Origin: Candidatus Woesearchaeota archaeon
GTDB taxonomy: Archaea; Nanobdellota; Nanobdellia; Woesearchaeales; GW2011-AR9
DNA: 30,109 nt
Direction of reading: 5' to 3'
Assembly: GCA_016188105.1 (NCBI GenBank)
Contig: JACPIL010000048.1
Span: 1 to 30,109, forward strand
The notes under the pieces are model-generated. The model worked only from the letters and a program-made list of their open reading frames with translations, had not been told where the DNA came from and did not search any database. Each line of letters starts with the position of its first letter. The stretch's first letter is position 1. The position numbers were made by a program, and so were the translations under genes. Of this stretch, positions 25,522-28,700 are shown piece by piece.

Positions 25522-25833
25522 TTAGCCAAATAGCGCGCCCAAACCTGCAGCGGCAGATTCTTCAGCTTTTTTGCCATCTTCTTTCTTCTTTTCTTCTTTC
25601 TTAGCTTCCCCGGCAGGAGCAGCACTAGCAGCAGGCGCAGCGGCGACTGCGGTAACAGTAGCGGCTTTCTGGACTGCTTCTTCGATATTGACACCTTCAA
25701 GAGCAGCCACTAGAGCTTTTACTCTCGCTTCGTCAACATGAACTCCAGCTGCGCTTAAGACTGCCTTAACGGCATCAGTGGTAATGCTCTTACCTGCTTT
25801 GTGAAGCAACATTGCGGCGTAAATGTATTCCAT
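25522..25833 (-). CDS. rpl12: Ribosomal stalk protein L12/P1
   Basis: [11 protein letters not shown]..., Ala-rich hinge and [10 protein letters not shown] tail. Confidence 0.97.
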
Positions 25834-25886: not shown

Positions 25887-26726
25887 TTATAGATTGGCTT
25901 CCCTCTTTAAGGAGAGAGCTTGCCTTTCTGAACGTGCAATTATTTCGTCACTGGTTTCTTTATTCACGATTGCGTATTCTACTCCTACCGCTTTTGCCTC
26001 GCGGAAAGCTTTCTGTAATAATATTTCCGTAGTTTCTGATGTAGGATAGGCTGCTTCTACCGCTAAATTCATAGCCCAGGTAGCAGCCTGAATCACATTC
26101 TGAGTGTACTCTTTCTCGTCGATATGCAATTGTTTAGCATCAAATACTAATCCCTCTTCCCAAACTGCAACTAAGTTCAAACCAACTTCCATGGGTTTGA
26201 TGTCGAGGCGCTTTAAGGTTTCTGCAACTTTTGGAGAGATAACATCTCCTTCCTTAGCGACGGTAGTATCCTGGATCACTTCCAGTTTTCCCGCATTTAC
26301 TTTAGTTTTGATACCGACAGCGGCTAATTCTGAAATGATCGGCCCTGGCGCAAAACTGGTAGGGCCCGCTTTTACAATGATGTCTCTGGGCGCGGTCTGG
26401 CCTGCTTTTGCCGGAGCTTCAGATTTATTTTTTTCGATAAGCGCATTAAGAGCAAAAGGATTGTCCTTGGTAAAGAGTAAGGCAGGCATTCCTCGGATTT
26501 TTTGTTTTAATTGCTGCAGATTTTCTTTTTTTGATTGGTCAAGAGCAAGCTCCAATAATTTCTTCTTGGTCATGCTTAGCTTAACGCCTTTTTGCTTGAG
26601 CATGGCGCGCATGGTTTGTAATTGCTGAGCAGGTAAATTTTGTAAATTAAGTACCCCGACAATAGGATATTGGTCAATGTCTTTAATCAACTGCTGTACA
26701 AGTTGTTTTTTTTGTTGGCTGACCAT
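25887..26726 (-). CDS. rplP0: Ribosomal stalk protein L10/P0 (no acidic C-terminal tail)
   Basis: PAKAGQTAP.DI.VKAGPTSFAPGP, LDIKPMEVGL and three C-terminal spine helices. Confidence 0.95.
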   Translation of the reverse strand: MVSQQKKQLVQQLIKDIDQYPIVGVLNLQNLPAQQLQTMRAMLKQKGVKLSMTKKKLLELALDQSKKENLQQLKQKIRGMPALLFTKDNPFALNALIEKNKSEAPAKAGQTAPRDIIVKAGPTSFAPGPIISELAAVGIKTKVNAGKLEVIQDTTVAKEGDVISPKVAETLKRLDIKPMEVGLNLVAVWEEGLVFDAKQLHIDEKEYTQNVIQAATWAMNLAVEAAYPTSETTEILLQKAFREAKAVGVEYAIVNKETSDEIIARSERQALSLKREANL

Positions 26727-26767: not shown

Positions 26768-27406
26768 TTATACTTTCACTGGTTTTCCCATACTCAACTT
26801 TAACATGACGTTCTTAATATTCTGCGCTTCATTAGGCAACTGTTTGATAGTAGCTTGGTAAACAGTCAAAATATTATCGATGATTTGATCTTCTGGCTGG
26901 TCTTCTTTTCCGACATGGCATTGTACATTGGTTCCTTTCTTCGCGCTAAGGCGCACAGTAGTAGCAAGTTTCTTTACCAATGGTTCAAGGTTAGCGTTGG
27001 GAGGAACAACACATCCTAACTTAGGGTTAGGCATTTTTCCTCGAGCGCCGAGAGCTTTACCGAAAATAGCTGCTAGTTTTGGCATAAGAGTAGCTTGAGC
27101 GATAAAATAATTATAATTCTGGGCTAGGCTTTTGACTTCTTTTTTGTCTTTATATTTTTCAAAATCAGTTTCACGAATCGATAGATCACAGAATTTAGCC
27201 GCTTGTTCAACTAGTTGTTGATCAACAAAAGCAGCAGTCTTGATCTTTTTTCCTCGAGGGTAATGAAGAGTGACAAAGAGATCAACTGGATGTTGTTTGA
27301 CATCATGATCTTTAAGATTGATGACTAAATCGTAAGATTGGACAAACTTGCGTTTAGGCTGCTTCTGTAATTCCTGTAGCGCTTTTTGGACTTGTTCTTT
27401 GTTCAT
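26768..27406 (-). CDS. rpl1: 50S ribosomal protein L1
   Basis: KRKFVQSYDLVINLKD, FIAQATLM..GKALGARGKMP and KLSMGKP. Confidence 0.96.
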   Translation of the reverse strand: MNKEQVQKALQELQKQPKRKFVQSYDLVINLKDHDVKQHPVDLFVTLHYPRGKKIKTAAFVDQQLVEQAAKFCDLSIRETDFEKYKDKKEVKSLAQNYNYFIAQATLMPKLAAIFGKALGARGKMPNPKLGCVVPPNANLEPLVKKLATTVRLSAKKGTNVQCHVGKEDQPEDQIIDNILTVYQATIKQLPNEAQNIKNVMLKLSMGKPVKV

Positions 27407-27416
27407 AACAACCTCC

Positions 27417-27460
27417 CACTGGGCAGAATTCGGTTCATCATGATCAGAGCCGAGCCAGTG
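27417..27460 (-). promoter_or_regulatory. 5'-UTR hairpin with K-loop (box D CTGA / box C ATGATGA) adjoining the rpl1 SD
   Basis: CACTGG-C-TCGG-CT-CTGA-TC-ATGATGA-A-CCGA-ATTCTGC-CCAGTG followed immediately by GGAGG and then ATG. Confidence 0.6.
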
Positions 27461-27494
27461 GTATTATTGGTTTGACTGTTGGGGACGGAGCTTA

Positions 27495-27510
27495 TTTATA
27501 AAGATTTTGG
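27495..27510 (-). promoter_or_regulatory. BRE + TATA box of the rpl1-rplP0-rpl12 operon
   Basis: CCAAAATC-TTTATAAA about 90 nt upstream of the ATG, implying a leader of roughly 65 nt. Confidence 0.6.
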
Positions 27511-27646: not shown

Positions 27647-28117
27647 TCATAACCGCTTCTGGAATGTATCTCTGATCTCATTAACCTTTTTTTCGTTTAA
27701 TTTGATAATAATTGACTTACACTTAACTAAAAATTCTGGAGCTTTCTGAATCATCTTATGGTATTGTTCGTCTGGAACAGTCCTATCAATGTAATACTGG
27801 GAATCAACTCTTGCTTTCAAAGATTTTTCCATAAAATCAAATTCTGATTCTTGAAAATAATCTTTAAGGAATCTTTTTGCAAATTCAATAGTACAGGAGT
27901 GAATTTCACATTTTATGCCGATCTTCATCAAAATAGCATAAAGCGAAAAGTAGATGGTGAAATATGCGGTTGAAATCTTCCAATCTTTAATAATGTTCAC
28001 TCGCATTGACTCAAGAGCTTCTTCAGCTTTCTTAATGTAGGCATTGGCAAGATCTGAATTCGGCTCAATTAAACTTAATCCTTCTTTCTTCCCTGCGCAC
28101 CATTTTATCTTATCCAT
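27647..28117 (-). CDS. HEPN-domain protein
   Basis: AEEALES...AYFTIYFSLYAILMKIGI...H...R...QY, a UPF0332-like HEPN pattern; overlaps the MNT gene by 8 nt. Confidence 0.85.
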   Translation of the reverse strand: MDKIKWCAGKKEGLSLIEPNSDLANAYIKKAEEALESMRVNIIKDWKISTAYFTIYFSLYAILMKIGIKCEIHSCTIEFAKRFLKDYFQESEFDFMEKSLKARVDSQYYIDRTVPDEQYHKMIQKAPEFLVKCKSIIIKLNEKKVNEIRDTFQKRL

Positions 28118-28700
28118 CCTTGAAAACCACCCGTATAAATTGCTCTACATTAACAAAAACCACGTGGTTTTTTAAAACTTCTTTCAGAAGAATGTCTTTG
28201 GTCAAATTTTTCTCAAAAGTTTTTAGGGGATAGCACCTTACACTTATTTCTATGCCTAAATTTTTTGAAACTTTTGTTATCTCATCTTGGTTATAATCAC
28301 CAGCGACAAAAATATCCAAATCAGAACCTTCTTTTTCTAATCCTTTGACATAACTTCCAAAAATAACCGCAATTCCGCTGATATGGGGGATTATTTTCTC
28401 TATGATTTCCTTAATCAAAAGTCTTTTTTCTAAAAAGGCGATTGCCTTGTATTGTTCTACCAAAACGAGATACCTCTTAGTAAACTCACTGGGATTTATT
28501 TTATAAGTCTTGATTTTTCCTTTAGTTTTTGATTCTATAATCCCTTTATCTTCTAAATCTTCAAGAATAAGCTGTGCGGTTCTGGGGCTTATTTTTAACA
28601 ATCTCTCAACTTCCCTAATGTAGTACTCTCTCCTAAAATCATTGGTAAATAGGGATAAGACTTGTAAGCTGTTCTCGGTTATTCTAAGTTTATTATACAT
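28110..28700 (-). CDS. wHTH + minimal nucleotidyltransferase (MNT)
   Basis: N-terminal YIREVERLLKISPRT wHTH; IFGSYVKGLEKEGSDLDIF GS-x10-DxD motif. Confidence 0.9.
   Translation of the reverse strand: MYNKLRITENSLQVLSLFTNDFRREYYIREVERLLKISPRTAQLILEDLEDKGIIESKTKGKIKTYKINPSEFTKRYLVLVEQYKAIAFLEKRLLIKEIIEKIIPHISGIAVIFGSYVKGLEKEGSDLDIFVAGDYNQDEITKVSKNLGIEISVRCYPLKTFEKNLTKDILLKEVLKNHVVFVNVEQFIRVVFKDG

What the first reader, a model, noticed from the sequence alone, without database searches (positions are those of the whole stretch)
27407..27475. K-loop in the rpl1 leader: candidate L7Ae-controlled switch for the L1-P0-L12 operon
Sequence: CTGA-TC-ATGATGA gives tandem G.A pairs, U.U, C-G and a TCGG/CCGA stem, inside a CACTGG/CCAGTG stem ending directly at the GGAGG SD. 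Many genes here look leaderless, but this one has a leader of about 65 nt. Established: L7Ae binds box C/D K-turns and K-loops, including in archaeal mRNA leaders; in Methanococcus this operon is instead repressed by L1 at a site within the rpl1 coding region, which I do not see here. Inference: cross-regulation of the stalk operon by L7Ae, or a novel L1 site.
Basis: partly seen in the sequence, partly recalled or inferred. Interest (0 to 1): 0.65.

Follow-up and report, generated by a model that had tools for sequence, protein, structure and literature searches.

The report
Permuted uL1 operator in rpl1 leader
The leader of the L1-P0-P1 ribosomal protein operon of this Woesearchaeota genome carries a conserved copy of protein L1's own rRNA binding site, joined the other way round and built around the ribosome-binding site; it most likely lets L1 shut off its own operon, while the K-loop that drew attention is a species-specific accident in a variable loop.

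Summary
On the minus strand, CUGA-UC-AUGAUGA (27447-27435) lies inside UCGG/CCGA and CCACUGG/CCAGUGG stems that end at the GGAGG Shine-Dalgarno sequence (SD). The K-loop look is not conserved. It fills the 10-nt apical loop of a genus-specific insertion hairpin. It is absent from the nearest relative (97% L1 identity) and from about 90 other leaders, and was found only in a 98%-identical metagenome contig.

What is conserved across the phylum is a different element: 5'-NCC-(G/A)-N3-8-A-[C(U/C)AC...loop...GU(A/G)G]-GA-GGN-3', 3-9 nt before the AUG. It matches the 23S rRNA L1 site piece by piece: the top of H76 (C-G closing pair), the GA bulge, the 3-bp H77 that starts with G-C, and the joining strand G...A. 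The strands are circularly permuted relative to rRNA and to the E. coli rplK operator. H77's 5' strand is the SD itself, and its 3' strand probably lies at the mRNA's 5' end.

Both helices covary, and a model built without this genus picks out the window's leader. The bulge's first base partly tracks each genome's own rRNA.

Best reading: L1 autorepression (about 0.7). L7Ae control: about 0.06. This is a new variant of a known kind.

The parts
27495..27502 (-). TATA box TTTATAAA of the rpl1 operon promoter
   Evidence: Sequence read. In 61 of 86 related leaders the first T lies 30-33 nt upstream of the P0 5' strand, and exactly 31 nt in 38 of them.
27469..27472 (-). P0 5' strand, (A)ACC. It is the analogue of the 3' strand of rRNA helix H77 and lies at or next to the predicted transcription start.
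   Evidence: It pairs with GGU(U) at 27413-27410. Covariation across relatives: ACC/GGU 39, CCC/GGG 29, UCC/GGA 2, AGC/GCU 3, CUC/GAG 1. The start-site position is inferred from promoter geometry only.
27462..27468 (-). Joining strand AAUAAUA, the analogue of the rRNA strand between H77 and H76 (G...ACA)
   Evidence: Across 86 leaders the length is 5-7 nt in 80. The first base is G in 70 and A in 16. That the last base is A in all 86 is partly the parser's doing, since it favoured candidates with A there. The rRNA has GCCGAUGAAACA and the E. coli rplK leader has GUUAUUA.
27455..27461 (-). P1 5' strand CCACUGG, the analogue of the 3' strand of the top of H76 (rRNA CCACU)
27430..27453 (-). P2, a genus-specific insertion hairpin (UCGGCUC / GAACCGA with one C.A mismatch) capped by a 10-nt loop
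   Evidence: RNAalifold on 10 leaders of the genus gives 6 pairs, 4 of them with compensatory changes. The hairpin is absent from other genera.
27435..27447 (-). K-loop-like sequence CUGA-UC-AUGAUGA (box D'/C'-like), the object of the finding
   Evidence: Present in the window and in the 98%-identical contig L125. Absent from all other leaders.
27423..27429 (-). 3' internal loop AUUCUGC. The AUUCU is invariant within the genus and its function is unknown.
   Evidence: invariant columns in 10 of 10 leaders.
27416..27422 (-). P1 3' strand CCAGUGG, the analogue of the 5' strand of the top of H76 (rRNA GGUGG). Its last G is the first base of the SD.
27414..27415 (-). GA bulge, the same as the GA between H76 and H77 in 23S rRNA. 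It forms the middle of the SD GGAGG.
   Evidence: The bulge is GA in 82 of 86 leaders, AA in 3 and UA in 1. The rRNA of the genus has GGUGG-GA-GUU. The first base partly tracks the genome's own rRNA.
27410..27413 (-). P0 3' strand GGU(U), the analogue of the 5' strand of H77. It is the 3' part of the SD.
26768..27406 (-). rpl1 (uL1), 212 aa
   Evidence: Pfam Ribosomal_L1, E = 2e-38.
25887..26726 (-). rplP0 (uL10/P0), 279 aa
   Evidence: Pfam Ribosomal_L10 plus RL10P_insert.
25522..25833 (-). rpl12/P1 stalk protein, 103 aa
   Evidence: Pfam Ribosomal_60s.

Best explanation
The rpl1 5' leader is an autoregulatory operator for ribosomal protein uL1. It is an mRNA copy of the uL1 site on 23S rRNA with the strands connected in a different order.

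Helix P1 (CCAC.../...GUGG) copies the top of H76. The GA after it copies the GA bulge. The next three or four bases, GGU(U), pair with (A)ACC near the 5' end of the leader to copy the short helix H77. The A-rich strand between ACC and P1 copies the H77-H76 joining strand.

In rRNA, and in the E. coli rplK operator, the H77 side is closed and the H76 side is open. Here the H76 side is closed by a loop (in this genus by the inserted P2 hairpin) and the H77 side is open. The bases G-GA-GG are at the same time the SD.

Proposed mechanism (inferred, not shown). When uL1 exceeds free 23S rRNA, it binds and locks the weak 3-4 bp P0 helix. That holds the SD in a protein-bound junction and blocks initiation at rpl1. 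P0 and P1 would be co-repressed if, as reported for Methanococcus, all cistrons depend on the first.

The K-loop-like letters in the P2 loop are most likely a by-product of drift in a loop that carries no constraint.
For: 1. Structure of the rRNA site. Rfam's archaeal LSU model, aligned to a 23S of the same genus, gives GGUGG-GA-GUU...GAC-GCCGAUGAAACA-CCACU. The leader gives ACC-AAUAAUA-CCACU...AGUGG-GA-GGU. Four features are shared: the closing C-G pair, the GA, a G-C first pair of the short helix, and a purine-rich joiner ending in A.

2. Conservation. The parser placed the same architecture on 86 of 93 non-identical rpl1 leaders of Woesearchaeota/Nanoarchaeota, though it demanded most of that architecture. 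A model search placed 72 of 75 hits at the rpl1 start in 317 kb of flanking DNA.

3. Covariation on a structure-blind MAFFT alignment of 47 leaders, none from this genus: 91% of cells are paired against 81% in shuffles (0 of 500 shuffles reach the observed value), slid controls give 24-56%, and 6 of 8 pairs show double changes. The model-fitted alignment of 75 hits gives 93.9%. P0 states are ACC/GGU 39, CCC/GGG 29, UCC/GGA 2, AGC/GCU 3, against 13 mismatched, plus CUC/GAG in G068. On the L1 protein tree the first P0 base changes about 6 times. Five of those changes are matched by a complementary 3' base; the sixth, L105, is mismatched at the middle pair.

4. A covariance model built without this genus ranks the window's leader first in the window: 16.5 bits, E = 0.04, despite the 36-nt insertion.

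5. Specificity. A loose motif scan of the whole genome gives 7 hits, and only the rpl1 one sits before an AUG. The only other model hit in the genome lies inside a coding region.

6. Breadth. The strict pattern CCR-N3-8-ACUAC-N3-30-GUAGGAGG hits 166 of 401 genomes of the phylum, nearly always once. All 8 genomes that could be cross-checked have it directly upstream of L1.

7. The first bulge base partly follows the genome's own rRNA. Across 23 genome pairs, 4 of 5 AA or UA leaders have the same AA or UA in their 23S (permutation p about 0.006, uncorrected for kinship).

8. The E. coli rplK leader contains GGG-GA-GCCUC-UCA-GAGGC-GUUAUUA-CCC. These are the same elements in rRNA-like order, with a joiner much like the GUUAAUA and GUUAUCA seen here.

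9. Precedent. uL1 autoregulation through rRNA mimicry is established in bacteria and archaea (PMC3616713, PMC10931766).
Against: No binding, translation or transcription-start data exist for this lineage.

The GA and GG are also the SD consensus, so their conservation alone proves nothing. The ACC lies where an initiator element could be conserved.

P0 is only 3-4 bp, and its third pair is mismatched in about 15% of leaders. In 6 of 10 genomes whose rRNA bulge is AA or UA, the leader keeps GA, so tracking is partial.

The joiner in this genus begins with A, not the G found in rRNA and in most leaders.

The model score for the window's own leader (16.5 bits) would not be significant genome-wide without the positional prior. 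Tree support for independent compensatory events is weak: only 2 pairs lie on well-supported branches.

The details of which RNA atoms uL1 contacts could not be checked, because the structural papers were not held.
Confidence: 0.7

Rival explanations
1. L7Ae-controlled K-loop switch. L7Ae binds the CUGA/UGAUGA K-loop at the tip of P2, stiffens P2 and P1, and thereby occludes the SD. This would couple stalk-protein synthesis to L7Ae or box C/D RNP levels.
For: The sequence fits boxes D' and C' exactly, including the U.U and C-G pairs. It has the best supporting stem of the 32 such motifs in the genome. L7Ae and fibrillarin genes are present. L7Ae is known to repress translation through k-turns in 5' UTRs (PMC5539422). 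The motif is kept in a 98%-identical environmental contig.
Against: It is absent from the closest sequenced relative and from all other leaders examined. It occupies a loop whose sequence drifts freely, and it differs from the genus consensus AGAACAUAAA at only 4 of 10 positions. The bare motif is common: 32 per genome and 2 in this window. Only 4 nt separate the two sheared pairs, which leaves a single nucleotide beyond the 3-nt k-turn bulge; from memory, this is at or below the shortest known K-loops. No box C/D sRNA context surrounds it.
Confidence: 0.06
2. A protein-independent hairpin. P1 simply tunes SD accessibility or mRNA stability, or acts as a thermometer-like element or 5'-end protection. 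The resemblance to the L1 rRNA site is a coincidence created by the SD sequence GGAGG.
For: The last base of P1 and the following GAGG are the SD. Short hairpins abutting the SD are common. The first-look fold is only modestly stable (z = -1.7).
Against: This reading does not explain four things. The element is found once per genome and only at rpl1. The upstream NCC covaries with the base after GG, including AGC/GCU and CUC/GAG variants that weaken the SD. The joiner is conserved as G-N-A. AA and UA bulges appear preferentially in genomes whose rRNA has the same bulge.
Confidence: 0.15
3. An operator for the stalk complex P0(P1)n, the archaeal uL10/L12, by analogy with the bacterial rplJ leader, whose k-turn mimics the uL10 rRNA site. 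Here the K-loop or the AUUCU internal loop would be the P0 site.
For: The operon encodes P0 and P1. Bacterial uL10(L12)4 recognises a kink-turn in its leader (PMC10931766).
Against: The k-turn-like letters are not conserved. The conserved core matches the L1 site, not H42-H44. The only archaeal system in which this operon's control has been studied experimentally (Methanococcus) has L1 as the regulator.
Confidence: 0.03

Closest known systems
E. coli rplK-rplA (L11 operon) leader operator for uL1
   Same: It is an mRNA mimic of the 23S rRNA uL1 site upstream of the regulated gene. It has a short G/C helix, a GA bulge, a second helix beginning with G-C, and a 7-nt joiner G-N5-A (GUUAUUA in E. 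coli; GUUAAUA-like in Woesearchaeota, AAUAAUA here).
   Different: In E. coli the H77-like helix is the closed hairpin and the H76-like helix is open, and the SD lies about 20 nt downstream of the site. Here the H76-like helix is closed, the H77-like helix is open and formed between the leader's 5' end and the SD, and the SD is part of the site. The regulated genes also differ (L11-L1 against L1-P0-P1).
Methanococcus vannielii / M. jannaschii MvaL1 operon operator
   Same: Same operon (L1-L10/P0-L12), same regulator, and the same principle of rRNA mimicry with an asymmetric internal loop (PMC3616713; structural work cited in PMC2175363).
   Different: From my memory of Kraft et al. 1999 (paper not held): the Methanococcus site lies inside the rpl1 coding region, about 30 nt after the AUG, in rRNA-like strand order. 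The same paper reports leader-located sites for Archaeoglobus and haloarchaea. Their strand order could not be checked here.
23S rRNA L1 stalk (H76-H77-H78)
   Same: The H76 top pairs (CCAC/GUGG are identical in this genus), the GA bulge with its invariant A, a 3-bp H77 starting with G-C, and a joiner ending in A.
   Different: The leader has no H78 or inter-helix loops, and the strand order is circularly permuted.
K-loop (box C'/D' motif of archaeal C/D sRNAs) and the L7Ae 5' UTR k-turn
   Same: CUGA and UGAUGA boxes able to form tandem sheared G.A pairs, a U.U pair and a C-G pair, closed by a loop and located in a 5' UTR (PMC6009581, PMC5539422).
   Different: It is not conserved, has no guide or box C/D context, and has a very short loop. 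It lies in a drifting apical loop rather than next to the SD.

Membership tests
uL1 autoregulatory mRNA operator (rRNA mimic) | Located on the mRNA that encodes uL1, near the translation start | tested here: met
   The element ends 4 nt before the rpl1 AUG. In relatives, 72 of 75 model hits lie at the rpl1 start.
uL1 autoregulatory mRNA operator (rRNA mimic) | Two helices flanking an asymmetric internal loop, with a G-A and an unpaired A on one strand and a longer purine-rich strand on the other (PMC3616713) | tested here: met
   P1 / GA / P0 with a 5-8 nt joiner. Both helices covary.
uL1 autoregulatory mRNA operator (rRNA mimic) | Sequence and structure resemble the organism's own 23S rRNA H76/H77 junction | tested here: met
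   23S of the genus: GGUGG-GA-GUU...GAC-G...ACA-CCACU. Leader: AGUGG-GA-GGU...ACC-A...AUA-CCACU. The bulge is concordant in 15 of 23 genomes, p about 0.015.
uL1 autoregulatory mRNA operator (rRNA mimic) | Same 5'-to-3' strand order as rRNA (H76 5' - GA - H77 hairpin - joiner - H76 3'), as in the E. coli operator | tested here: not met
   The order here is H77 3' - joiner - H76 3' - loop - H76 5' - GA - H77 5', which is circularly permuted.
uL1 autoregulatory mRNA operator (rRNA mimic) | Binds uL1 with nanomolar affinity and represses translation | not testable with these tools
   Needs EMSA or filter binding, plus toeprinting or reporter assays.
K-loop / L7Ae-binding k-turn | Tandem sheared G.A/A.G pairs from CUGA and UGAUGA boxes, followed by U.U and a Watson-Crick pair | tested here: met
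   The sequence allows all of these pairs. This is sequence-level evidence only.
K-loop / L7Ae-binding k-turn | A loop replacing the canonical stem that is long enough to hold the 3-nt bulge plus closure | tested here: inconclusive
   Only 4 nt (UCAU) lie between the two sheared pairs. The lower limit for K-loops was not verified from a held paper.
K-loop / L7Ae-binding k-turn | Conserved among relatives if functional | tested here: not met
   Present only in the window and in a 98%-identical contig. Absent from 9 other leaders of the genus and about 80 from other genera.
K-loop / L7Ae-binding k-turn | L7Ae encoded in the genome | tested here: met
   PF01248 hit at 86 bits; fibrillarin is also present.
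Box C/D sRNA | Terminal boxes C and D flanking two guides of about 12 nt around the C'/D' pair | tested here: not met
   No RUGAUGA lies about 12 nt upstream and no CUGA about 12 nt downstream. No full C/D pattern was found in the genome with a strict pattern. Rfam gives no hit.

The most novel reading that the evidence does not exclude
A phylum-wide class of uL1 operators that has apparently not been described. In this class the rRNA site is circularly permuted, so that the SD itself (G-GA-GGN) is the H76/bulge/H77 strand, and the first transcribed nucleotides (NCC) are the other H77 strand. uL1 would repress by clamping the mRNA's 5' end onto its own ribosome-binding site. The operator's bulge co-drifts with the rRNA bulge. 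The P1 loop tolerates large lineage-specific insertions, such as the P2 hairpin of this genus.
Probability: 0.6. Interest if true: 0.55.

Novelty: new variant of a known kind. Interest (0 to 1): 0.45.

Why it matters
Autoregulation of ribosomal proteins by rRNA mimicry is textbook biology. In archaea, however, it rests on a handful of methanogen experiments, and I found nothing on DPANN archaea, which have minimal genomes and cannot be cultured alone.

A permuted operator that doubles as the SD would show that uL1 recognises only the local H76/GA/H77 junction, whatever the connectivity. It would also be a compact, portable repressor-operator pair, and would provide a simple sequence signature for annotating rpl1 starts and promoters in hundreds of metagenome-assembled genomes.

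The finding is also a caution. A textbook-perfect K-loop can arise by four substitutions in an unconstrained loop.

Tried and rejected
- Rfam, at gathering and at permissive thresholds, finds no family in the window or the leader.
- Box C/D sRNA reading: no terminal C/D boxes and no full C/D pattern in the genome.
- Native-order L1 site formed by P1 / P2 / AUUCUGC: it lacks the GA and the joiner does not end in A, so it was rejected by inspection.
- Pseudoknot between the P2 loop (AGAA) and the invariant AUUCU: it would need a 1-nt linker to cross a 7-bp stem, so it was rejected as sterically implausible.
- Own 23S rRNA: not assembled in this genome. A 23S from the same genus was used instead.
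- Two genome-wide pattern searches for the rRNA stalk returned nothing because of my own errors: one base too many, then a minimum gap of 40 where the true gap is 36. The corrected search worked.
- My first impression that the leader bulge always equals the rRNA bulge did not hold. With 23 pairs it holds in 15.
- My first automatic parser was too greedy with G-U pairs and was replaced.
- The structural papers on L1-RNA contacts and Kraft et al. 1999 were not held. Statements about them come from memory and are marked as such.
- The genomes of two AA-bulge leaders (L111, L112) gave no match to the 23S stalk pattern used, which may also have been too strict.
- G434 is an unpublished genome. It matched the rRNA stalk pattern and so counts among the 22 genomes with a stalk and the 7 with a UA bulge; it was left out of the 23-pair comparison of rRNA and leader bulges. 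G382, also unpublished, is one of the 166 pattern hits. No conclusion depends on either.

Full report
**What is in the sequence.**
The finding lies on the minus strand. Read 5' to 3', positions 27472 to 27404 are AACC-AAUAAUA-CCACUGG-C-UCGGCUC-UGAUCAUGAU-GAACCGA-AUUCUGC-CCAGUGG-GA-GGU-UGUU-AUG.
- The three downstream genes are uL1, P0 and P1/L12 (Pfam).
- The upstream neighbours are a HEPN/nucleotidyltransferase pair rather than L11. The operon therefore needs its own promoter, and TTTATAAA lies at 27502-27495.
- ViennaRNA folds the leader into the nested hairpins at -20 kcal/mol, only 1.7 SD better than shuffles.
- Rfam and ARAGORN find nothing.

**How unusual is the K-loop-like motif?**
- CUGA-N2-9-UGAUGA occurs 32 times in the 0.92-Mb genome, against 16.5 expected from composition. 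It occurs twice in this window, against 0.54 expected.
- The rpl1 copy has the best flanking stem of the 32, but no box C/D sRNA context.
- L7Ae and fibrillarin genes exist in the genome, so a binder is available.
- The idea has precedent: L7Ae represses its own mRNA through a 5' UTR k-turn (PMC5539422).

**Comparative test.**
I collected rpl1 loci from 40 relatives and 80 named genome contigs. The contig titles identify the group as Woesearchaeota/Nanoarchaeota (DPANN). This gave 93 non-identical leaders.
- The K-loop letters occur in none of them except the window.
- Within the window's genus, the leader contains a hairpin, P2, inserted into the loop of the outer stem. P2 has 6-7 covarying pairs and a 10-nt loop.
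- That loop reads AGAACAUAAA, AGAGUACAAA, AGAACGUGAA and so on. In the window it reads UGAUCAUGAU, which matches the consensus at 6 of 10 positions.
- The nearest relative (97% L1 identity, 91% DNA identity) has a different loop with no tandem G.A. A 98%-identical metagenome contig keeps the K-loop version.

So the motif is specific to one species-level lineage and sits in the least constrained part of the leader. It cannot be excluded for this one species.

**What is conserved.**
The same architecture could be placed on almost every leader: NCC, then G or A, then 3-8 nt ending in A, then a hairpin whose stem begins C(U/C)AC and ends GU(A/G)G, then GA, then GGN, then 3-9 nt, then the AUG. My parser demanded most of these features, so below are the fairer tests. 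The hairpin loop ranges from 3 to about 70 nt. In this genus it holds P2 plus an invariant AUUCU.

*Structure-blind alignment.* On a MAFFT alignment of 47 short-loop leaders, none from this genus, I scored the 3-bp helix P0 (NCC with GGN) and the 5-bp helix P1.
- 91% of cells are paired, against 81% in shuffles (0 of 500 shuffles reach this).
- Controls with the partner slid by 1-3 columns give 24-56%.
- 6 of 8 pairs show changes on both sides.

*Model search.* A covariance model built from that alignment gave these results.
- It ranks the window's leader first in the window at 16.5 bits, in spite of the 36-nt insertion.
- It places 72 of 75 hits at the rpl1 start in 317 kb of flanking DNA.
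- The fitted alignment gives 93.9% pairing.

*P0 states.* The counts are ACC/GGU 39, CCC/GGG 29, UCC/GGA 2 and AGC/GCU 3, with 13 mismatched at one pair. A CUC/GAG variant appeared later. On an L1 protein tree, the first P0 base changes about six times. Five of those changes are matched by a complementary 3' base; the sixth, L105, is mismatched at the middle pair. Only two such contrasts lie on well-supported branches.

*Specificity and breadth.*
- A loose motif scan of the whole genome finds only the rpl1 site in front of an AUG.
- The sole other model hit lies inside a Lon-like coding region.
- A strict version of the pattern hits 166 of 401 genomes of the phylum, almost always once. All eight genomes that could be cross-checked have it directly upstream of L1.

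**Why this is an L1 site.**
The window's genome has no assembled 23S, but a genome of the same genus does. Rfam's archaeal LSU structure, aligned to it, gives the L1 stalk core:
- H76 top: GGUGG/CCACU
- unpaired GA
- H77: GUU/GAC
- 12-nt joiner: GCCGAUGAAACA

The leader supplies the same parts:
- AGUGG/CCACU
- GA
- GGU/ACC
- AAUAAUA (GUUAAAA-like in most relatives)

Shared invariants are the C-G pair that closes the H76 analogue at the junction, the second bulge base A, the G-C first pair of the H77 analogue, a joiner that begins with G in 70 of 86 leaders, and an A just before the H76 analogue; my parser favoured that last A, so it counts for less.

The connectivity differs. In rRNA the H77 side leads on to H78 and is closed, and H76 opens toward the rest of the molecule. 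In the leader, the H76 analogue is the closed hairpin and the H77 analogue is formed by the two ends.

For a known operator from real sequence, I read the E. coli rplK leader. It contains GGG-GA-GCCUC-UCA-GAGGC-GUUAUUA-CCC, which is rRNA-like order, with a joiner very like those seen here. Assigning that stretch to the genetically defined L1 target is my inference from the literature cited in PMC10931766. Published descriptions of L1 operators speak of a stem with an internal bulge holding a G-A and an unpaired A (PMC3616713), which fits.

**rRNA and leader bulges compared.**
After two failed patterns of my own making, the corrected search found the stalk in 22 of 89 near-complete genomes.
- The first bulge base in rRNA is not fixed: GA 12, UA 7, AA 3. 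The second base is always A.
- I paired 23 genomes with their rpl1 leaders (plus three earlier ones; the unpublished G434 was left out of this pairing).

| rRNA bulge | Leader bulge |
|---|---|
| GA | GA 11, AA 1, CA 1 |
| AA | AA 2, GA 2 |
| UA | UA 2, GA 4 |

- Four of the five AA or UA leaders sit in genomes with the same rRNA bulge (permutation p about 0.006). Overall concordance is 15 of 23 (p about 0.015). Neither value is corrected for kinship.
- This is partial tracking. It is what one would expect if uL1 tolerates G, A or U at that position while the SD consensus pulls the leader toward GA.

**Mechanism (inferred).**
- The SD GGAGG is made of the last G of P1, the GA bulge and the first two bases of P0.
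- P0 is only 3-4 bp and should be open without protein, leaving most of the SD accessible.
- uL1 bound to the junction would fix P0 and bury the SD. Initiation at rpl1 would then be blocked, and probably at the coupled downstream cistrons too, as reported for Methanococcus.
- Newly made 23S rRNA would compete uL1 away, because the rRNA complex is reported to be the more stable of the two (PMC10931766).
- The TATA box sits a constant 30-33 nt upstream of the P0 5' strand in 61 of 86 leaders. That places the likely transcription start at or just before NCC, so the operator would use the very 5' end of the mRNA. This step rests on promoter geometry alone.

**Rivals.**
- A protein-free SD hairpin does not explain the one-per-genome restriction to rpl1, the NCC/GGN covariation (including variants that weaken the SD), or the bulge tracking.
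- A P0-P1 operator by analogy with bacterial L10 leaders has nothing conserved to rest on.
- L7Ae binding to the K-loop remains possible for this species only.

**Unexplained.**
The invariant AUUCU in the 3' internal loop of the genus-specific insertion has no assigned role.

**Earlier notes of this scan.**
One followed-up note reports a 'circularly permuted uL1-binding site that occludes the rpl1 SD' in a Heimdall archaeon. Others mention UUCG-capped hairpins just before rpl1 in other genomes. I reached the permuted reading before seeing these notes. They agree with it but are not independent proof.

**Verdict.**
The L7Ae interpretation is not supported. The alternative 'novel L1 site' is supported in a different form. 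The element is a new, permuted variant of the known uL1 operator, widespread in Nanoarchaeota. Interest is moderate.

Noticed in passing
window 27423-27454 (- strand); L002-L012 leaders: A genus-specific insertion in the P1 loop: a covarying hairpin plus a 3' internal loop whose AUUCU is invariant in 10 of 10 leaders. AUUCU is complementary to the AGAA/AGAG that starts the hairpin loop in 8 of 10 leaders, but a pseudoknot looks sterically impossible. No function is assigned.
   Followed up: partly
window 27647-28700 (- strand): A HEPN-domain ORF (156 aa) overlapping a nucleotidyltransferase ORF (196 aa), the arrangement of a toxin-antitoxin-like MNT/HEPN pair. It occupies the place directly upstream of rpl1 where rpl11 usually sits.
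   Followed up: no
L037 (G011:C15:4987-8762): The 23S rRNA of a genome of the same genus spans 3776 nt against a 2987-position model, which suggests about 0.8 kb of insertions or introns.
   Followed up: no
L014:135-178 and the following bases: One relative has the 3' half of the operator duplicated in tandem (GUAGGAGGU-GA-GUAGGAGGU) before the rpl1 AUG.
   Followed up: no
L090:1395-1434: In this Woesearchaeota contig the operator model hits about 70-100 nt upstream of the tblastn start of L1 and is followed by its own AUG. This suggests an N-terminal extension, a small upstream ORF or an intervening sequence.
   Followed up: no
L092, L099, L110, L120 leaders: A clade whose leaders read GUAGGAGGGUGGAGAUGGUCNUUAUGGA. 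A second in-frame AUG lies 9 nt upstream of the aligned start, so the true start codon is ambiguous.
   Followed up: no
23S L1 stalk of 22 Nanoarchaeota genomes: The first base of the H76/H77 'GA' bulge is variable in this phylum's rRNA (G 12, U 7, A 3), while the second base, A, is invariant.
   Followed up: partly
L086, L089, L093 and L131 leaders: Some clades have an SD weakened to GGAGCU or GGAGAG. The upstream strand changes in step (AGC, CUC), as if pairing mattered more than SD strength.
   Followed up: partly
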